From contig CH709152.1 in NCBI GenBank assembly GCA_000004695.1, positions 1 to 4,050 of the forward strand: a stretch of 4,050 nt of DNA, given 5' to 3'. Of this stretch, positions 1-3,900 are shown one piece after another; position 1 is the stretch's first letter; each line of letters begins with the position of its first letter. Both the position numbers and the translations under genes were made by a program. This DNA is from Dictyostelium discoideum (lineage: Eukaryota). The notes beneath the pieces were generated by a model. That model was given only the letters and a program-made list of their open reading frames with translations, searched no databases and had not been told where the DNA came from.

Positions 1-96
1 ATCCCATGAGTTTTGTTTATTATTATTTTTAAGTCTTTTATATGTGAGATGATTATTATTAATTAAATGACTTTGAGTTTTTTTTTTTATTTTTCT

Positions 97-273
97 ATGC
101 CCAAAATTACCATATTAATTTCAGCAGCCATATTAATTTCAGCCTAAAATAGTTGGTCTGTGCATGCCAAAATTAATATGGCTGCTGAAATTAATATGGT
201 AATTCTAGCAGACATAAGTCCCATGCCAAAATTACCATATTAATTTCAGCAGCCATATTAATTTTGGCATGGG
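97..273. repeat. Cluster of three copies (A, B, C) of a ~40-55 bp palindromic element arranged direct / inverted / direct. A is a 35-bp perfect inverted repeat with B, and B is a 42-bp perfect inverted repeat with C. C is itself a palindrome with 13-bp arms.
   Basis: A at 101-139 (ccaaaattaccatattaatttcagcagccatattaattt) is identical to C at 226-264. B at 163-205 (catgccaaaattaatatggctgctgaaattaatatggtaatt) is the exact reverse complement of C at 230-271. C at 219-273 reads tcccatgccaaaatta|ccatattaatttcagcagccatat|taattttggcatggg, with perfectly complementary arms catgccaaaatta and taattttggcatg. The core contains a direct duplication ccatattaatttcagc / agccatattaatttcagc. Confidence 0.85.
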
Positions 274-697
274 ACACACACTACTACTATGATTCAACCA
301 AATCAATATTCAACATTTAAATTAGAATTAATAGTATTAAAACAAGAATTTTCATTAATGTTCATTAAATTTAGAACGTAGTTTGAAATCATAGAATCAT
401 GACCCAACCACTGACTAGTAGTTTAAATCCATTCTCAAGTAATCATTCCAAATTATCACCACCAGCACCAAATGCAACATCAACTACAACATCAAATCAG
501 CAGCATCTCAATCGAAACAATTGCAGCTCATGAATCAATTCTTACTCTTCAAATCTAGCCAGTAAATGGTATCTCTGAAAATGAGACAAAATCTCAACAA
601 GCCACCCCAGAGAATTAGATTAGAGCTCTGAAGTTGATTGATGCAACCCATTGTTATCACAGGTGGTAAATCTGTAACAATATTTTCAACCATATGG

Positions 698-862
698 TTA
701 ATATGAATAAATTTTATTATCTATAATTAAAGGTTGTTGATTTAATCTATCGTTATTATTAAATTTATCTATTGATAAATCTAGTAGTATATCTCTTATC
801 TCGTCTAATCTTTTTTTTGCAGTTTTTTGTGAAATTTTAAAAATAAATGATAAATTATCCAT
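698..862 (-). CDS. Candidate small ORF of 54 aa: MDNLSFIFKISQKTAKKRLDEIRDILLDLSIDKFNNNDRLNQQPLIIDNKIYSY. It is speculative.
   Basis: Hand translation of the minus strand from the ATG at 862..860 to the TAA at 700..698. An in-frame stop lies 18 codons upstream. The sequence is protein-like rather than homopolymeric. The ORF is below the 60-aa cut-off of the supplied track. No homology or expression evidence is available. Confidence 0.15.
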   Translation of the reverse strand: MDNLSFIFKISQKTAKKRLDEIRDILLDLSIDKFNNNDRLNQQPLIIDNKIYSY

Positions 863-1050
863 AGTAGGATAATTTTTTATAAAATAAAAAAATAATAATT
901 TGAAATTTTTATTTTATTTTATTTTTCTTCGTTTATTGATCCATATATTTTAATAAAGGAAATTTTATCTACCCAAAATAAGGAGCGAAATTCCCTTTAA
1001 TATATTCTCTAAGGAATTATATGTTTCCATTCTTTAATAATAATTCATTA

Positions 1051-1098
1051 AAATTAAAAAAAAAAAAAAAATTTAAAAAAAATAAAAAAAAAAAAAAA
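1051..1098. repeat. A-rich block containing two A15 homopolymers, at 1056-1070 and 1084-1098.
   Basis: Direct read. Confidence 0.9.
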
Positions 1099-1194
1099 CT
1101 TTTAAAATTGAATATAAAAATGGTGATAATTATGCCATTATTGAATTTGTACTCTATGATAAATTTAATGGTCAAGAAATTTTAAACAAATGGG

Positions 1195-1196
<2 letters not shown>

Positions 1197-1235
<39 letters not shown>
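1197..1235. repeat. T39 homopolymer, extendable to about 1240 with one interruption.
   Basis: Direct read of 39 consecutive T, then a, then tttt. Confidence 0.95.
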
Positions 1236-1237
<2 letters not shown>

Positions 1238-1380
1238 TTTTCTTTAATTTTACTGGCAATTAATATCTATCACACCACCAAAAAAAATACCCCATAATTT
1301 ACATTCCTTTTAAAAAATTATGTAAAATGTATGTAAATTCATATTATTTTTTGAGTAGTTTTTTAATTTTTTAAGTTGTC

Positions 1381-1614
1381 GTGGAATTTTTTTATTTTAT
1401 TTTTTTTTGTTTTTTTATTTTGTTTTTTTTTTTTTTATTTATTTTTTTTAATTTTTTATTTTCATTAATCCAAAAGGCTTTAAGTATCGATTTCTCTTTT
1501 ATTTATTCTATTATATTATGTTCTAATTTTTGTTGTAGACTTGTTCCGCAACTACAACATTAACTGTGTCACACCCAAACAAATAAAATTAAAAAAAAGA
1601 TAAAAATAATAATA
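1381..1614 (+). promoter_or_regulatory. Putative promoter and 5' UTR of the 1615 gene: an oligo(dT)-rich block at about 1383-1470, then an A-rich leader into the ATG.
   Basis: Dictyostelium promoters characteristically carry oligo(dT) stretches just upstream of the transcription start and an A-rich leader, which is established knowledge. Here T-runs span 1383-1470 and aaaaaaaagataaaaataataataATG precedes the start. A TA-rich TATA-like sequence sits at about 1318-1345 (tatgtaaaatgtatgtaaattcatatt). No exact TSS can be called. Confidence 0.3.
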
Positions 1615-3597
1615 ATGTCAACAAAAAAAAAAATTAAAACAGATAATAATAATAAAATATTTCAAGATTTTATTGATTTTGAAATTTTAAGATCTTTAAT
1701 CAATTATTTATTAATCAACAAAACAAATAATAATAATAATAATAATAATAAATATAAAATTAGTAAATTTTATTTACATAGAAATGAAATATTGAATTAT
1801 ATATTAGTTTCAAAAAAGTGGTATAATTTTATATCATTAACAATATCAAATAATATTATTAATAATAAATCATTTGAACATTGGTTAAAAATTAATAATA
1901 ATAATAATAATAAATCATTTACTAAAAATTATAATAATCAAAATCGATATGATAAAAATAATTTAATTTTTAATAACAAATATAGTAAAAATAAAATTGG
2001 TTTTAATAAAGAATTTTCAATTATAAAAATCAAAGAATCAATAATCAAAGATTATTTTAAATTCAATTTATTTTTAAGTAATATTACAATTGATGATTTT
2101 AAAGAAATTAAAAATAAATTTGAAAATAATCAATTAGTTTATAATAGAATTGTTGTTGATATTAAAACTGGCTATTATGGTGAAGGGAATCAAGATGAAA
2201 TTTTATTTAAAATACATGAATATGTATCAAATGAAAATTCAGAAATCATATCAAATTTATTTAAAATATTAGAATTAAATCATGATTTTATGATAATCGA
2301 TGACTTTCATCCAAAATCTAAAGAAGAGGATGAAGAGGATGAGGAGGATGATGAAAATGATAAAGGTAGTAAGAAATGTACTGAAATATATTTAAATAAT
2401 TTATTGGTTTCCGGTTATGATCTAACTATGGATGAGGATGAAGATAGAGAATCATTAAAGATATTCAAAATATTTAAAAGTAAAAATATATTTTATGATG
2501 GGTCTGGTATTGCTAGTGATATTCCAACACATGTCAATTATTCAGCATTGTTTGATCCTGATAATTCAGGTCAACAAGTTGAATCGATTAAAGTAAAAAA
2601 TGAACTTGAAGATCCTGATTTTGTAGAACCACTCCATTTAATCAAAGTTAATCAATTTAAAAATTTACATTCAATTACAATACCAATTAATTCATTTCAA
2701 ATATTATCAAACTTATCCGAAGAAATGGGATATTTTAGTATCGATTGTTTTAAATCTGGTTTTGGTCTTTCAGATAATATGAAATCAGAATTAAATCAAA
2801 TGATCAATTCATTCATTACAAGTAAATCTTTAAAAAATTTAAAAATAACATCTATTAGTACAAAAGAAGATCCAATTGATTATGATGCTTATTATGATGA
2901 AGGTGATCTTCAAACTTTTATGAATCAAATAAATGAACCTAAAGAATCATTTTCAAATTGTTTCAAACCATTATTTTCAGAATTAAATACATCAATTGAA
3001 AGAATTGAATTTGATTGTTGCGGTTTATTAAATATCAATACATTTTCAAATTTATTAAATAATAAATCAATTAAATATTTATATTTATATGATAGTGATT
3101 TCTTTTTTTCTTCATTAAAAACAAGTGATGGTGGTAGTGATGATTGTGGTATTGATGATGATGGTGGTAGTGATGATTGTGGTATTGATGATGATGGTGG
3201 TAGTGATGATTGTGATGCATATCAAAAAATTATTTCCATTAATCAATATCTATTTGAAAATATATTTTCATCACCATTAACATCAATTAGACATTACAGA
3301 ATTAAATTCAAAGAATTAGATGAATTAAAATTCATATTTAATTTAATATTAAATAATATTTTTAAATTACAATTATATTCATTAATATTTGAATTCAATG
3401 AAAACGAATTAGTTTATGAATTTGTTAAAGAATTTAAAAATTTAATAAATAATATTTCAATACAAGAACAACAACAACAACAACAAAAATCAAACAACAT
3501 AAATTTAAAAGAAATTAAAATTATAATAAATGATGACTGTTTAGAAGAATTAAATAATCCATATTTCAAAACAACAATAAAGAATAGCCCATATTAA
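1615..3597 (+). CDS. Asn/Gln/acidic-rich protein, 660 aa, single exon. It has an F-box-like N-terminus and loosely leucine-rich-repeat-like C-terminal segments. The product is tentative.
   Basis: Uninterrupted 1983-nt ORF in an otherwise stop-dense, AT-rich window. The start sits in an A-rich context (aataataataATGtca), which is typical of Dictyostelium. Codon usage is host-like (aat, caa, tta, aga, ggt, gat). The N-terminus, 'FEILRSLINYLL ... EILNYILVSKKWYNFIS', resembles the F-box consensus (LPxEIL..I...L ... LVCKRWxxLI), split here by an (N)8 tract. The C-terminal segments 'IERIEFDCCGLLNINTFSNLL' and 'FKNLHSITIPINSFQILSNL' have LxxLxLxxC/N-like spacing. It ends in TAA, followed by an A34 tract. 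Confidence 0.8.
   Translation: MSTKKKIKTDNNNKIFQDFIDFEILRSLINYLLINKTNNNNNNNNKYKISKFYLHRNEILNYILVSKKWYNFISLTISNNIINNKSFEHWLKINNNNNNKSFTKNYNNQNRYDKNNLIFNNKYSKNKIGFNKEFSIIKIKESIIKDYFKFNLFLSNITIDDFKEIKNKFENNQLVYNRIVVDIKTGYYGEGNQDEILFKIHEYVSNENSEIISNLFKILELNHDFMIIDDFHPKSKEEDEEDEEDDENDKGSKKCTEIYLNNLLVSGYDLTMDEDEDRESLKIFKIFKSKNIFYDGSGIASDIPTHVNYSALFDPDNSGQQVESIKVKNELEDPDFVEPLHLIKVNQFKNLHSITIPINSFQILSNLSEEMGYFSIDCFKSGFGLSDNMKSELNQMINSFITSKSLKNLKITSISTKEDPIDYDAYYDEGDLQTFMNQINEPKESFSNCFKPLFSELNTSIERIEFDCCGLLNINTFSNLLNNKSIKYLYLYDSDFFFSSLKTSDGGSDDCGIDDDGGSDDCGIDDDGGSDDCDAYQKIISINQYLFENIFSSPLTSIRHYRIKFKELDELKFIFNLILNNIFKLQLYSLIFEFNENELVYEFVKEFKNLINNISIQEQQQQQQKSNNINLKEIKIIINDDCLEELNNPYFKTTIKNSPY
1654..1842 (+). 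other. F-box-like motif region within the CDS, aa 14-76, interrupted by a poly-Asn insertion.
   Basis: aa 22-33 'FEILRSLINYLL' and aa 58-75 'EILNYILVSKKWYNFISL' match the two halves of the F-box consensus. Between them lies 'INKTNNNNNNNNKYKISKFYLHRN'. The VSKKW motif is recurrent in Dictyostelium F-box-like proteins. This rests on established knowledge of the family and no HMM search was possible. Confidence 0.4.
1726..1749 (+). repeat. (AAT)8 microsatellite in frame, encoding poly-Asn N38-N45.
   Basis: Direct read of aataataataataataataataat, in frame with the 1615 ORF. Confidence 0.9.
1894..1911 (+). repeat. (AAT)6 microsatellite in frame, encoding a second poly-Asn run.
   Basis: Direct read of attaataataataataataataaatca, translating as I N N N N N N K S. 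Confidence 0.9.
2323..2358 (+). repeat. Acidic tract EEDEEDEEDDEND, built from imperfect 9-bp gaagaggat-type repeats.
   Basis: gaagaggatgaagaggatgaggaggatgatgaaaatgat. The first two 9-mers are identical and the third differs by one base. Confidence 0.8.
3127..3216 (+). repeat. Perfect 33-bp tandem repeat, about 2.7 copies, in frame and encoding DGGSDDCGIDD three times.
   Basis: gatggtggtagtgatgattgtggtattgatgat occurs at 3127-3159 and again, identically, at 3160-3192. A third partial copy, gatggtggtagtgatgattgtgat, runs from 3193 to about 3216. The protein reads SDGGSDDCGIDDDGGSDDCGIDDDGGSDDCDAY. Confidence 0.95.
3463..3486 (+). repeat. CAA-repeat tract encoding QEQQQQQQ (short poly-Gln).
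   Basis: caagaacaacaacaacaacaacaa, in frame. Confidence 0.9.
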
Positions 3598-3680: not shown

Positions 3681-3734
3681 ACAAATAATGTCAACAAATA
3701 AATTAAAAAACAGATAATAATAATACAATATTTT
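3681..3734 (+). pseudogene. Degenerate duplicate of the 5' end of the 1615 gene (leader plus first ~16 codons). It now reads ATG TCA ACA AAT AAA TTA AAA AAC AGA TAA, a 9-aa ORF.
   Basis: 3682-3734 (caaataATGtcaacaaataaattaaaaaacagataataataatacaatatttt) aligns to 1609-1670 (ataataATGtcaacaaaaaaaaaaattaaaacagataataataataaaatatttcaag). The blocks ataATGtcaacaaa, aaattaaaa and cagataataataata are shared, at roughly 85% identity. Weaker similarity extends upstream, where cttgtt...aacaaataa occurs both at 1540-1588 and at 3652-3687. Confidence 0.45.
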
Positions 3735-3839
3735 AAAATTTAATTTTTTTTTTTTTTTTTTTATATAAATAAATAATTTACCTTTTGATTTGGAAATATA
3801 ATTTATTTTATTTTGTTTGTTGTAGGGAATTTTCCATAA

Positions 3840-3900
3840 AATTTCACTACAGTAGCGTAGTGAATTTTATTATTTAATTTCACTACAGTAGCGTAGTGAA
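3840..3900. repeat. Two perfect copies of the 25-bp motif aatttcactacagtagcgtagtgaa, at 3840-3864 and 3876-3900 (period 36 bp). Each copy contains the dyad cactac-agtagc-gtagtg.
   Basis: Direct read. cactac and gtagtg are reverse complements, and ctac/gtag is nested inside. This is the only GC-containing island in an otherwise >85% AT intergenic stretch. Confidence 0.9.

What the first reader, a model, noticed from the sequence alone, without database searches (positions are those of the whole stretch)
97..273. Alternating-orientation triplet of a palindromic ~50-bp element: nested long perfect inverted repeats
Three copies of one element sit within 180 bp as direct, inverted and direct. This gives a 35-bp perfect inverted repeat (105-139 / 171-205, 31-bp loop) and a 42-bp perfect inverted repeat (163-205 / 230-271, about 24-bp loop). 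The third copy is itself a hairpin with perfect 13-bp arms. Perfect identity over more than 40 bp in a slippage-prone AT-rich genome implies either recent origin or active homogenisation. Such an arrangement can extrude a cruciform or double hairpin. It is the kind of structure seen at DNA-transposon termini and MITE-like elements, at replication or recombination hotspots, or as a processed hairpin-RNA precursor. I cannot match it to a named Dictyostelium element (DIRS, TRE, DDT, Tdd, thug, skipper) from memory, so it may be an unclassified small repeat family.
Basis: seen in the sequence. Interest (0 to 1): 0.6.

Follow-up and report, generated by a model that had tools for sequence, protein, structure and literature searches.

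The report
Known transposon end, known microRNA hairpin
The three nested inverted repeats are the right-hand end of a truncated thug-S DNA transposon of Dictyostelium discoideum, and the hairpin they form is the already catalogued thug-S-derived small-RNA precursor mir-7131, so the structure is real but already known.

Summary
The repeats are real and far beyond chance. Units lie at 97-145 (+), 163-210 (-) and 218-275 (+). They give perfect inverted repeats of 35 and 42 nt, and fold z-scores of -12 to -17.

They are not an unclassified family. Rfam mir-7131 (RF03716) matches 173-261 on both strands at 98.9 and 95.8 bits (gathering score 74). The published thug-S-derived small RNAs miRNA_can_D3-5p/-3p map to 177-199 and 239-259 with one mismatch each and a 2-nt 3' overhang.

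A complete 1183-bp copy lies about 12 kb away on the same chromosome. It has perfect 18-nt terminal inverted repeats (TGTCCCATGCCAAAATTA), long imperfect arms and a 6-bp target-site duplication. Removing it restores an open reading frame.

The window holds only the right-terminal ~450-520 bp of such an element, ending at position 276. Module plus the neighbouring inverted unit make the hairpin.

Novelty: already known. Interest: low.

The parts
1..96 (+). AT-rich inner part of the right arm of thug-S. It continues about 180-250 nt to the left of the window. It ends in a T-run (75-96) just before unit A.
   Evidence: Aligns with the right arm of the full element at L009 18320-19502 (element positions ~660-1183 = L001 8134-8662, 89.7% over 542 nt). 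Also aligns with arm fragments at L001 172-427 and 3931-4108.
97..145 (+). Unit A, made of two 18-nt subunits (110-127 and 128-145). The L009 and L006 copies have only one subunit here.
163..210 (-). Unit B, the inverted unit (subunits 165-181 and 183-199). It is the partner arm for either A or C.
218..275 (+). Unit C, the terminal 58-nt palindromic module of thug-S. It has 17-nt arms at 218-234 / 259-275 and subunits at 235-251 and 253-269.
   Evidence: In the full element the module sits in the same orientation at both ends (positions 2-59 = 1125-1182, 100% identical).
259..276 (+). Right terminal inverted repeat TAATTTTGGCATGGGACA. The element ends at 276.
   Evidence: Four independent termini all end in GGCATGGGACA and then diverge. 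The full copy has a perfect 18-nt terminal inverted repeat and a 6-bp target-site duplication, CGTGAT.
173..261 (-). mir-7131 precursor hairpin (B:C). The minus strand scores slightly better.
   Evidence: Rfam RF03716 scores 98.9 bits (-) and 95.8 bits (+) against a gathering score of 74, over the full model with near-identical sequence. MFE is -78.3 (-) versus -70.4 (+) kcal/mol. The two DNA mismatches become G-U pairs only on the minus strand.
177..199 (+). Site matching the published thug-S small RNA miRNA_can_D3-5p (1 mismatch). The same sequence is also present on the minus strand at 235-257 and 110-132.
   Evidence: mapping of the sequence from PMC4894637 Table 2.
239..259 (+). Site matching miRNA_can_D3-3p (1 mismatch). 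Also at 114-134 (+) and 175-195 (-). With 177-199 it gives a 2-nt 3' overhang at the base of the duplex.
   Evidence: Pairing register i+j=434.
87..256 (-). Annotated 25-aa gene model (MAAEINMAEINMAAEINMVILGIEK). Its 92-nt GT..AG intron (144-235) holds unit B and the loop. It is probably an artefactual ORF.
   Evidence: Gene call at L001 8473-8642(-), reconstructed. [quoted passage not shown]

Best explanation
Window 1-276, plus about 180-250 nt to its left, is the right-terminal part of a left-truncated copy of thug-S, a non-autonomous DNA transposon of Dictyostelium discoideum.

Architecture. A full thug-S is about 1.18 kb. It has no ORF longer than 55 aa lying within it. Its arms are long imperfect inverted repeats, and their outer ends are made of 18-nt subunits (CCATATTAATTT[CT][AG]GCA). 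It finishes in a 58-nt palindromic module whose outer 18 nt form the perfect terminal inverted repeat. That module lies in the same orientation at both ends. As a result, only at the right end is it inverted relative to the neighbouring unit B. There B and C form a 42-48-bp near-perfect hairpin. In this copy a duplicated subunit in unit A adds an alternative 35-bp A:B hairpin.

Function. When transcribed, the hairpin is the precursor catalogued as mir-7131. The literature reports that thug-S-derived ~21-23-nt small RNAs depend on the RbdB/DrnB microprocessor, rise in agnA- cells and are most abundant late in development.

Shown here: the anatomy, the family membership, the transposon nature (TIR, TSD, restored ORF) and the match to published small-RNA sequences.

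Inferred: that this particular copy is transcribed and processed, which strand is used (minus is weakly favoured), and that the 18-nt subunits began as transposase-binding sites.
For: RNA family and small RNAs
- Rfam RF03716 mir-7131 matches above its gathering score on both strands, with near-identical primary sequence. The same hit occurs at the right end of the full copy.
- Published thug-S small RNAs D3-5p and D3-3p map with 1 mismatch each and a 2-nt overhang.
- The literature states that thug-S carries multicopy miRNA loci.
- The 25-aa gene model has the hairpin in its intron. Its product has two accessions in one assembly, which indicates a second identical copy.

Transposon nature
- The full element is at L009 18320-19502. 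It has an 18-nt perfect terminal inverted repeat, arms 1-296 versus 821-1183 at 68%, and a 6-bp target-site duplication CGTGAT. Excising it restores a continuous ORF. It has no ORF over 55 aa wholly inside it.
- The window copy equals element positions ~660-1183 at 89.7%.
- A left-end copy lies on another contig (L006 13095-13566, 89.7%).
- Four termini share GGCATGGGACA and then diverge.

Stability
- The hairpins are very stable, with z-scores of -11 to -17.
Against: - I could not compare the sequence with the deposited thug-S consensus or with miRBase entries. The name thug-S rests on the small-RNA match, the intron description and the Rfam family.
- No expression data exist for this copy. 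It is truncated and differs by one base from each published mature sequence.
- A perfect 42-48-bp duplex in a transposon looks more like an siRNA-type hairpin than a canonical miRNA. In PMC6161686 only candidates D1 and D2 of the Meier set, not the thug-S one, met high-confidence miRNA criteria.
- The strand evidence is weak and mixed. In the L009 copy a C-to-T change in unit C keeps pairing as G-U only on the plus strand.
Confidence: 0.87

Rival explanations
1. The block is only a transposon terminus. The 18-nt subunits and the terminal palindrome exist as DNA-level binding and cleavage sites for a transposase supplied in trans. The small RNAs are siRNA-like by-products of transposon silencing, not regulatory miRNAs.
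For: - The subunits are confined to both arms of the element, in nine copies in the full element. They end in a perfect terminal inverted repeat with a target-site duplication.
- The duplex is perfect over 42 nt, which is unlike typical bulged miRNA precursors.
- The thug-S candidate was not among those meeting high-confidence miRNA criteria.
Against: - Meier et al. report that the thug-S small RNAs meet all six of their criteria, including RbdB dependence, a rise in agnA- cells and Northern detection.
- The 5p/3p pair has a 2-nt overhang in the hairpin.
- miRBase and Rfam keep the family.
- The two readings are not mutually exclusive.
Confidence: 0.3
2. A local palindromic duplication created by replication slippage or template switching in AT-rich DNA, with no family and no function.
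For: The number of subunits differs between copies. Unit A has two here and one in L009 and L006, so slippage does act on the array.
Against: - The same architecture recurs at four termini on two contigs, with conserved boundaries.
- A full copy has a terminal inverted repeat, a target-site duplication and an ORF-restoring empty site.
- There is an Rfam family match.
Confidence: 0.02
3. The hairpin block is the non-autonomous partner (MITE) of the IS5/PIF-Harbinger-like DDE transposase whose pseudogene fragment lies about 430 bp away (window 707-1027, minus strand).
For: - The two are adjacent in the window.
- A second thug-S end lies about 5 kb from another fragment of that transposase family in L006.
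Against: - The element ends at 276, and 277-709 is unrelated flank.
- The target-site duplication is 6 bp, not the 3-bp TAA/TTA of PIF/Harbinger (the expectation is from general knowledge).
- No subunit motif occurs in any of the three loci that carry this transposase family in D. citrinum or D. cf. discoideum (L002, L003, L007).
Confidence: 0.05

Closest known systems
ddi-mir-7131 (Rfam RF03716), the thug-S-derived small-RNA precursors of Dictyostelium discoideum (Avesson et al. 2012, as cited in PMC4894637 and PMC6161686)
   Same: - Full-length match at 98.9 and 95.8 bits with near-identical sequence.
- Same hairpin.
- Published mature sequences present with 1 mismatch each.
- Located in a thug-S copy.
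   Different: - This copy is a truncated element.
- It carries an extra 18-nt subunit in unit A, which gives a second, alternative 35-bp hairpin.
- Expression of this copy is untested.
thug-S DNA transposon (Glockner et al. 2001, as cited in PMC5633606)
   Same: - Multicopy and non-coding.
- Terminal inverted repeats and a target-site duplication.
- About 1.2 kb in full length.
- The miRNA hairpin lies inside the annotated thug-S gene model's intron.
   Different: - Only the right ~450-520 bp is present at this locus.
- The consensus sequence itself could not be consulted.
MITE- or TIR-derived miRNA genes, such as human miR-548 from MADE1 and plant MITE-derived miRNAs (from general knowledge)
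   Same: A hairpin precursor created by inverted repeats of a non-autonomous DNA transposon, multicopy, with near-perfect arms.
   Different: Here the hairpin is not formed by the two ends of the element folding together. It is formed by the terminal palindromic module and an adjacent subterminal unit at one end only.
Subterminal repeat arrays of DNA transposons, such as the 12-bp motifs of En/Spm-CACTA and Harbinger Myb-binding motifs (from general knowledge)
   Same: A short motif repeated in direct and inverted orientation within a few hundred bp of both termini.
   Different: - No cognate transposase is known.
- Binding is untested.
- The 6-bp target-site duplication does not fit CACTA or Harbinger.

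Membership tests
Rfam RF03716 mir-7131 | Covariance-model score at or above the curated gathering score (74 bits) over the full model | tested here: met
   98.9 bits (173-259, -) and 95.8 bits (175-261, +), model positions 1-84 of 84.
Rfam RF03716 mir-7131 | Mature small-RNA sequences lie in opposite arms of the hairpin with Dicer-type 3' overhangs | tested here: met
   D3-5p maps to 177-199 and D3-3p to 239-259, 1 mismatch each. There is a 2-nt 3' overhang at the basal end.
Rfam RF03716 mir-7131 | This locus is expressed and processed in a DrnB/RbdB-dependent way | not testable with these tools
   Only family-level statements are available from the literature.
thug-S DNA transposon | Dispersed multicopy repeat | tested here: met
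   - One full copy, L009 18320-19502.
- The right half in the window.
- A left half on another contig, L006 13095-13566.
- Two arm fragments, L001 172-427 and 3931-4108.
- A second identical 25-aa gene product.
thug-S DNA transposon | Terminal inverted repeats and a target-site duplication | tested here: met
   The full copy has an 18-nt perfect terminal inverted repeat and a 6-bp target-site duplication CGTGAT, and the ORF is restored on excision. The window copy keeps only the right terminus (259-276), so its own target-site duplication cannot be read.
thug-S DNA transposon | Sequence match to the deposited thug-S consensus | not testable with these tools
   No eukaryotic repeat library or AX4 genome could be searched. 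The Glockner 2001 and Avesson 2012 papers are not held.
thug-S DNA transposon | Carries the published thug-S-derived miRNA inside the 'intron' of the thug-S gene model | tested here: met
   The 25-aa gene model's intron (144-235, minus strand) contains unit B and the loop (PMC4894637).
MITE (miniature inverted-repeat transposable element) | Non-coding, with terminal inverted repeats and a target-site duplication, AT-rich | tested here: met
   No ORF over 55 aa lies wholly inside the element. Terminal repeat and duplication.
MITE (miniature inverted-repeat transposable element) | Miniature size (usually under ~800 bp) and derivation from a known autonomous element | tested here: not met
   The full length is 1183 bp. 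No autonomous partner was identified. The neighbouring transposase fragment lies outside the element.
PIF/Harbinger-IS5 superfamily | 3-bp TAA/TTA target-site duplication, and termini shared with a DDE_Tnp_4 transposase-bearing element | tested here: not met
   The target-site duplication is 6 bp. No hairpin subunit occurs in loci with the DDE_Tnp_4 genes.

The most novel reading that the evidence does not exclude
The orientation rule seen here may be a designed asymmetry. The terminal 58-nt palindromic module is direct at both ends while the arms are inverted, so only the right end makes the mir-7131 hairpin. If so, each thug-S, and even solo right ends like this one, is a self-contained small-RNA gene.

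Thug-S arm fragments are scattered beside a large, fast-evolving species-specific gene family (the DDB_G02714xx cluster). Those fragments would then make neighbouring transcripts targets of the element's own small RNAs, forming a lineage-specific regulatory network. The 6-bp target-site duplication and the TGTCCC termini might also place the orphan 'thug' class in a known superfamily.
Probability: 0.1. Interest if true: 0.5.

Novelty: already known. Interest (0 to 1): 0.15.

Why it matters
As found, it matters little. It re-identifies a catalogued transposon-derived small-RNA locus in a model organism.

It does show that a sequence-only reader correctly recognised both the transposon-end and the hairpin-precursor character.

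The follow-up adds modest detail I did not find in the papers available to me:
- the exact terminus (TGTCCCATGCCAAAATTA);
- a 6-bp target-site duplication with an ORF-restoring empty site;
- the same-orientation terminal module, which explains why only one end of thug-S yields the mir-7131 hairpin;
- variation in subunit number between copies.

These details could help classify the orphan thug transposon class. They could also help decide whether its small RNAs are true miRNAs or hairpin siRNAs.

Tried and rejected
Literature not available
- Avesson 2012, Glockner 2001 and Eichinger 2005 are not held.
- Supplement searches for mir-7131 or for the sequences found nothing.

Searches that found nothing
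- A metagenome scan for the 30-mer gave 0 hits.
- Close relatives of the neighbouring gene (P0005 at 87%, P0007 at 80%) were fetched in the hope of an empty site. Their upstream regions are not alignable with the window beyond the proximal promoter.
- A protein search with concatenated small ORFs of 1-870 matched only the transposase N-terminus. Region 277-709 stayed unmatched in DNA and translated comparisons with L002/L003.
- AX4 paralogues P0062 and P0011 are not in the gene-position index.
- The P0003 look-up returned the same contig again.

Ideas dropped
- I first read the L006 copy as an inversion of the inner segment of unit C. This was rejected once the full element showed that L006 is a left end, where the terminal module naturally has that orientation.
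- I considered that the IS5/Harbinger-like fragment and the hairpins belong to one element. This was rejected on boundaries and on target-site-duplication length.
- A search for terminal inverted repeats around the intact IS5-like gene in L007 was swamped by low-complexity matches.

Full report
OBSERVATION

The window is Dictyostelium discoideum DNA. Its long ORF (1615-3597) is identical to DDB_G0271418 of strain AX4. Window 1-1400 is 99.6% identical to contig JBTAPE010000001.1 of assembly GCA_054883475.1, with window position 1 equal to L001 position 8387.

The repeat finder and direct string comparison confirm three copies of one unit.
- Unit A lies at 97-145 (+), B at 163-210 (-) and C at 218-275 (+).
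- A and C share a 39-nt perfect direct repeat (101-139 = 226-264).
- A and B form a 35-nt perfect inverted repeat (105-139 / 170-204).
- B and C form a 42-nt perfect inverted repeat (163-204 / 230-271). It extends to 48 nt at 96% (163-210 / 224-271).
- Unit C is itself a hairpin with 17-nt perfect arms (218-234 / 259-275).

Each unit is a pair of 18-nt subunits, CCATATTAATTT[CT][AG]GCA, six in all in the pattern ++ -- ++. The motif has 7 matches in the 22-kb locus against 0.01 expected. As RNA, 90-285 folds at -81.5 (+) and -92.8 (-) kcal/mol, with z-scores of -12.4 and -12.7. The B:C hairpin alone gives z-scores of -14.7 and -16.7.

WHAT IT IS: THE RNA LEVEL

A scan of the whole window against Rfam gives mir-7131 (RF03716) at 173-259 (-) with 98.9 bits and at 175-261 (+) with 95.8 bits. 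The gathering score is 74. The hit covers all 84 model positions with almost every consensus base identical. Other miRNA families score far below their thresholds and reflect only the generic long stem.

Meier et al. (PMC4894637) list a small-RNA pair: miRNA_can_D3-5p, UAUGGCUGCUGAAAUUAAUGUGG, and D3-3p, AUUAAUUUCGGCAGCCAUAUU.
- It adds that thug-S-derived miRNAs had already been published by Avesson et al. 2012.
- Liao et al. [quoted passage not shown]

Both published sequences occur in the window with one mismatch each. The 5p maps to 177-199 and the 3p to 239-259 on the plus strand. Because the arms are perfectly complementary, the same sequences also lie on the minus strand and in unit A. 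In the B:C pairing register, the 3p end overhangs the 5' end of the 5p by 2 nt, as expected for RNase III products.

The public annotation of the matching contig carries a 25-aa gene at window 87-256 (-). Reconstructed, it reads MAAEINM|AEINMAAEINMVILGIEK, with a 92-nt GT..AG intron (144-235) that contains unit B and the loop. This fits the "intron of thug-S" description. The ORF is almost certainly an artefact of translating the repeats. Its exact product has two NCBI accessions in the same assembly, which indicates a second identical copy that I could not fetch.

WHAT IT IS: THE DNA LEVEL

Sampling about 110 kb of D. discoideum DNA through neighbouring and related genes turned up further copies.

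The key one is a complete element at L009 18320-19502, on the same contig about 12 kb to the left of the window locus.
- It is 1183 bp long.
- It has perfect 18-nt terminal inverted repeats, TGTCCCATGCCAAAATTA / TAATTTTGGCATGGGACA.
- Its long imperfect inverted arms (1-296 versus 821-1183) are 68% identical.
- It is flanked by a 6-bp direct duplication, CGTGAT.
- It has no ORF above 55 aa wholly inside it.
- Deleting the element and one CGTGAT joins the flanks into one continuous reading frame (...DKFEQPRDIGKSHASITL...).

It is therefore a genuine transposon insertion into coding-like sequence.

The window locus matches element positions ~660-1183 at 89.7% (L001 8134-8662). Clear similarity starts near window -180, next to an (AAT)n tract. 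The window therefore holds only the right-terminal part of an element that has lost its left part, and the element ends at window 276.

A left-end copy sits on a different contig (L006 13095-13566 = element positions 1-445, 89.7%). Two arm fragments lie at L001 172-427 and 3931-4108. Aligning four termini shows that all end in GGCATGGGACA and then diverge into unrelated flanks. Window 277-709 is therefore flank, not part of the element.

HOW THE HAIRPIN ARISES

It is present in the same orientation at both ends of the full element (positions 2-59 = 1125-1182, 100% identical). The rest of each arm is inverted.

The consequences follow directly.
- Its 17-18-nt outer arms still provide the terminal inverted repeat.
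- Its inner 24 nt are inverted relative to the neighbouring unit B only at the right end.
- Right ends (the window, and L009 19399-19487) therefore form the 42-48-bp hairpin and hit Rfam mir-7131.
- No Rfam match falls on either left end (L006, and L009 18320-18440).

In the window, unit A has two subunits where the other copies have one.

Between copies there are point changes and subunit indels. The perfect arms in this copy therefore need no special homogenising process.

STRAND

The minus strand is weakly favoured.
- It has the higher Rfam score, and the loop matches the model in that orientation.
- The two DNA mismatches at the top of the stem are G-U pairs on the minus strand but C-A on the plus strand, giving -78.3 versus -70.4 kcal/mol.
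- The annotated gene model is on the minus strand.

Two points argue the other way.
- A T-run (75-96) followed by G99 on the plus strand resembles the pri-miRNA start-site motif described in PMC6161686. Thug-S loci were excluded from that analysis.
- One substitution in the L009 copy keeps pairing only on the plus strand.

The strand remains unresolved.

MECHANISM AND STATUS

The best-supported account is as follows. The block is a transposon terminal and subterminal repeat region. The 18-nt subunits are plausibly former transposase-binding sites, but this is an inference. When transcribed, the region folds into a long hairpin that the DrnB/RbdB microprocessor cuts into ~21-23-nt RNAs.

The family-level evidence comes from the literature: RbdB dependence, a rise in agnA- cells, Northern detection and predominance late in development. 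Processing of this copy is inferred.

One caveat stands. A perfect transposon hairpin resembles an siRNA precursor, and only candidates D1 and D2 of that set, not the thug-S one, met Liao et al.'s high-confidence miRNA criteria. Whether these are true miRNAs or hairpin siRNAs is still open.

COMPARISON AND NOVELTY

The locus passes the Rfam membership test. It also passes every thug-S feature I could test: multicopy, terminal inverted repeat, target-site duplication, non-coding, and the published small RNA in the gene model's intron. The deposited consensus could not be consulted.

It works like other TIR/MITE-derived miRNA genes, with one difference. The stem is made by the terminal module and a subterminal unit at one end, not by the two ends of the element.

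It is not a PIF/Harbinger partner. The IS5/Harbinger-like DDE_Tnp_4 pseudogene fragment at 707-1027 (-) lies outside the element. The target-site duplication is 6 bp. Loci carrying that transposase lack the subunit motif.

Verdict: a real and striking structure that is already known. Interest is low. The only modest additions are the element's precise termini, the target-site duplication and the end asymmetry.

Noticed in passing
window 707-1027 (minus strand); L002 5749-6811; L003 5997-8172; L007 4001-4919: A pseudogenised N-terminal fragment, with frameshifts and a stop, of a short IS5/PIF-Harbinger-type DDE transposase (Pfam DDE_Tnp_4, HTH_Tnp_4).
- It is 93% identical over 54 aa to a D. 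citrinum protein. Window 710-1098 is 85% identical in DNA to that locus.
- Homology stops abruptly at 710.
- Outside Dictyostelium, most matches are ~255-aa HTH_Tnp_4/DDE transposases from metagenomes; the few named ones are actinobacterial.
- A review states that Dictyostelium DNA-transposon transposases resemble no known ones (PMC5633606).
   Followed up: partly
window 277-709: A 430-bp stretch between the thug-S terminus and the transposase fragment. It has unusually high G+C for Dictyostelium intergenic DNA (30-46%). It has no ORF over 52 aa, no Rfam hit, and no protein or DNA match in anything searched.
   Followed up: partly
L009 18320-19502 and flanks: The full thug-S copy interrupts an open reading frame. 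Excision plus loss of one CGTGAT restores it. The annotation there instead calls a 117-aa gene on the opposite strand, running into the element.
   Followed up: yes
L001 172-427 and 3931-4108; L009; window locus: One full thug-S copy and two arm fragments lie within about 17 kb of the window's right-end copy. They are interleaved with members of a large, fast-evolving, species-specific gene family (DDB_G0271392-0271434 and about 90 paralogues).
   Followed up: partly
window 3845-3900: Two direct copies of a 24-nt unit, atttcactacagtagcgtagtgaa, 35 nt apart. Each contains a 7-bp stem (tcactac/gtagtga), and the pair is followed by an A-run. There is no Rfam match.
   Followed up: no
window 3121-3210: Three tandem 30-nt coding repeats inside DDB_G0271418, encoding DGGSDDCGID three times.
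   Followed up: no
window 3685-3745: A degenerate partial duplicate of the 5' end of the ORF (aataatgtcaacaaa...cagataataataat) about 90 nt downstream of its stop. It is consistent with tandem duplication in this gene family.
   Followed up: no
window 1289-1298: The motif ccccataa resembles, from memory, the Dictyostelium upstream sequence element (DUSE) found about 60 nt upstream of small non-coding RNA genes. No RNA family was detected downstream.
   Followed up: no
L003 5906-5952: A 46-nt near-perfect palindrome, cacgttgggtgctgaaaaaaagcgctttttttcagcacctaacgtg, about 50 nt upstream of the IS5-like transposase gene of D. cf. discoideum.
   Followed up: no
L007 102-6667; L003 10837-12141: In D. 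cf. discoideum a 283-aa IS5-like gene is flanked by two 434-aa DDE_Tnp_4 genes in the same orientation. Another 434-aa copy lies in L003. This points to a second, larger Harbinger-like family in these amoebae.
   Followed up: no
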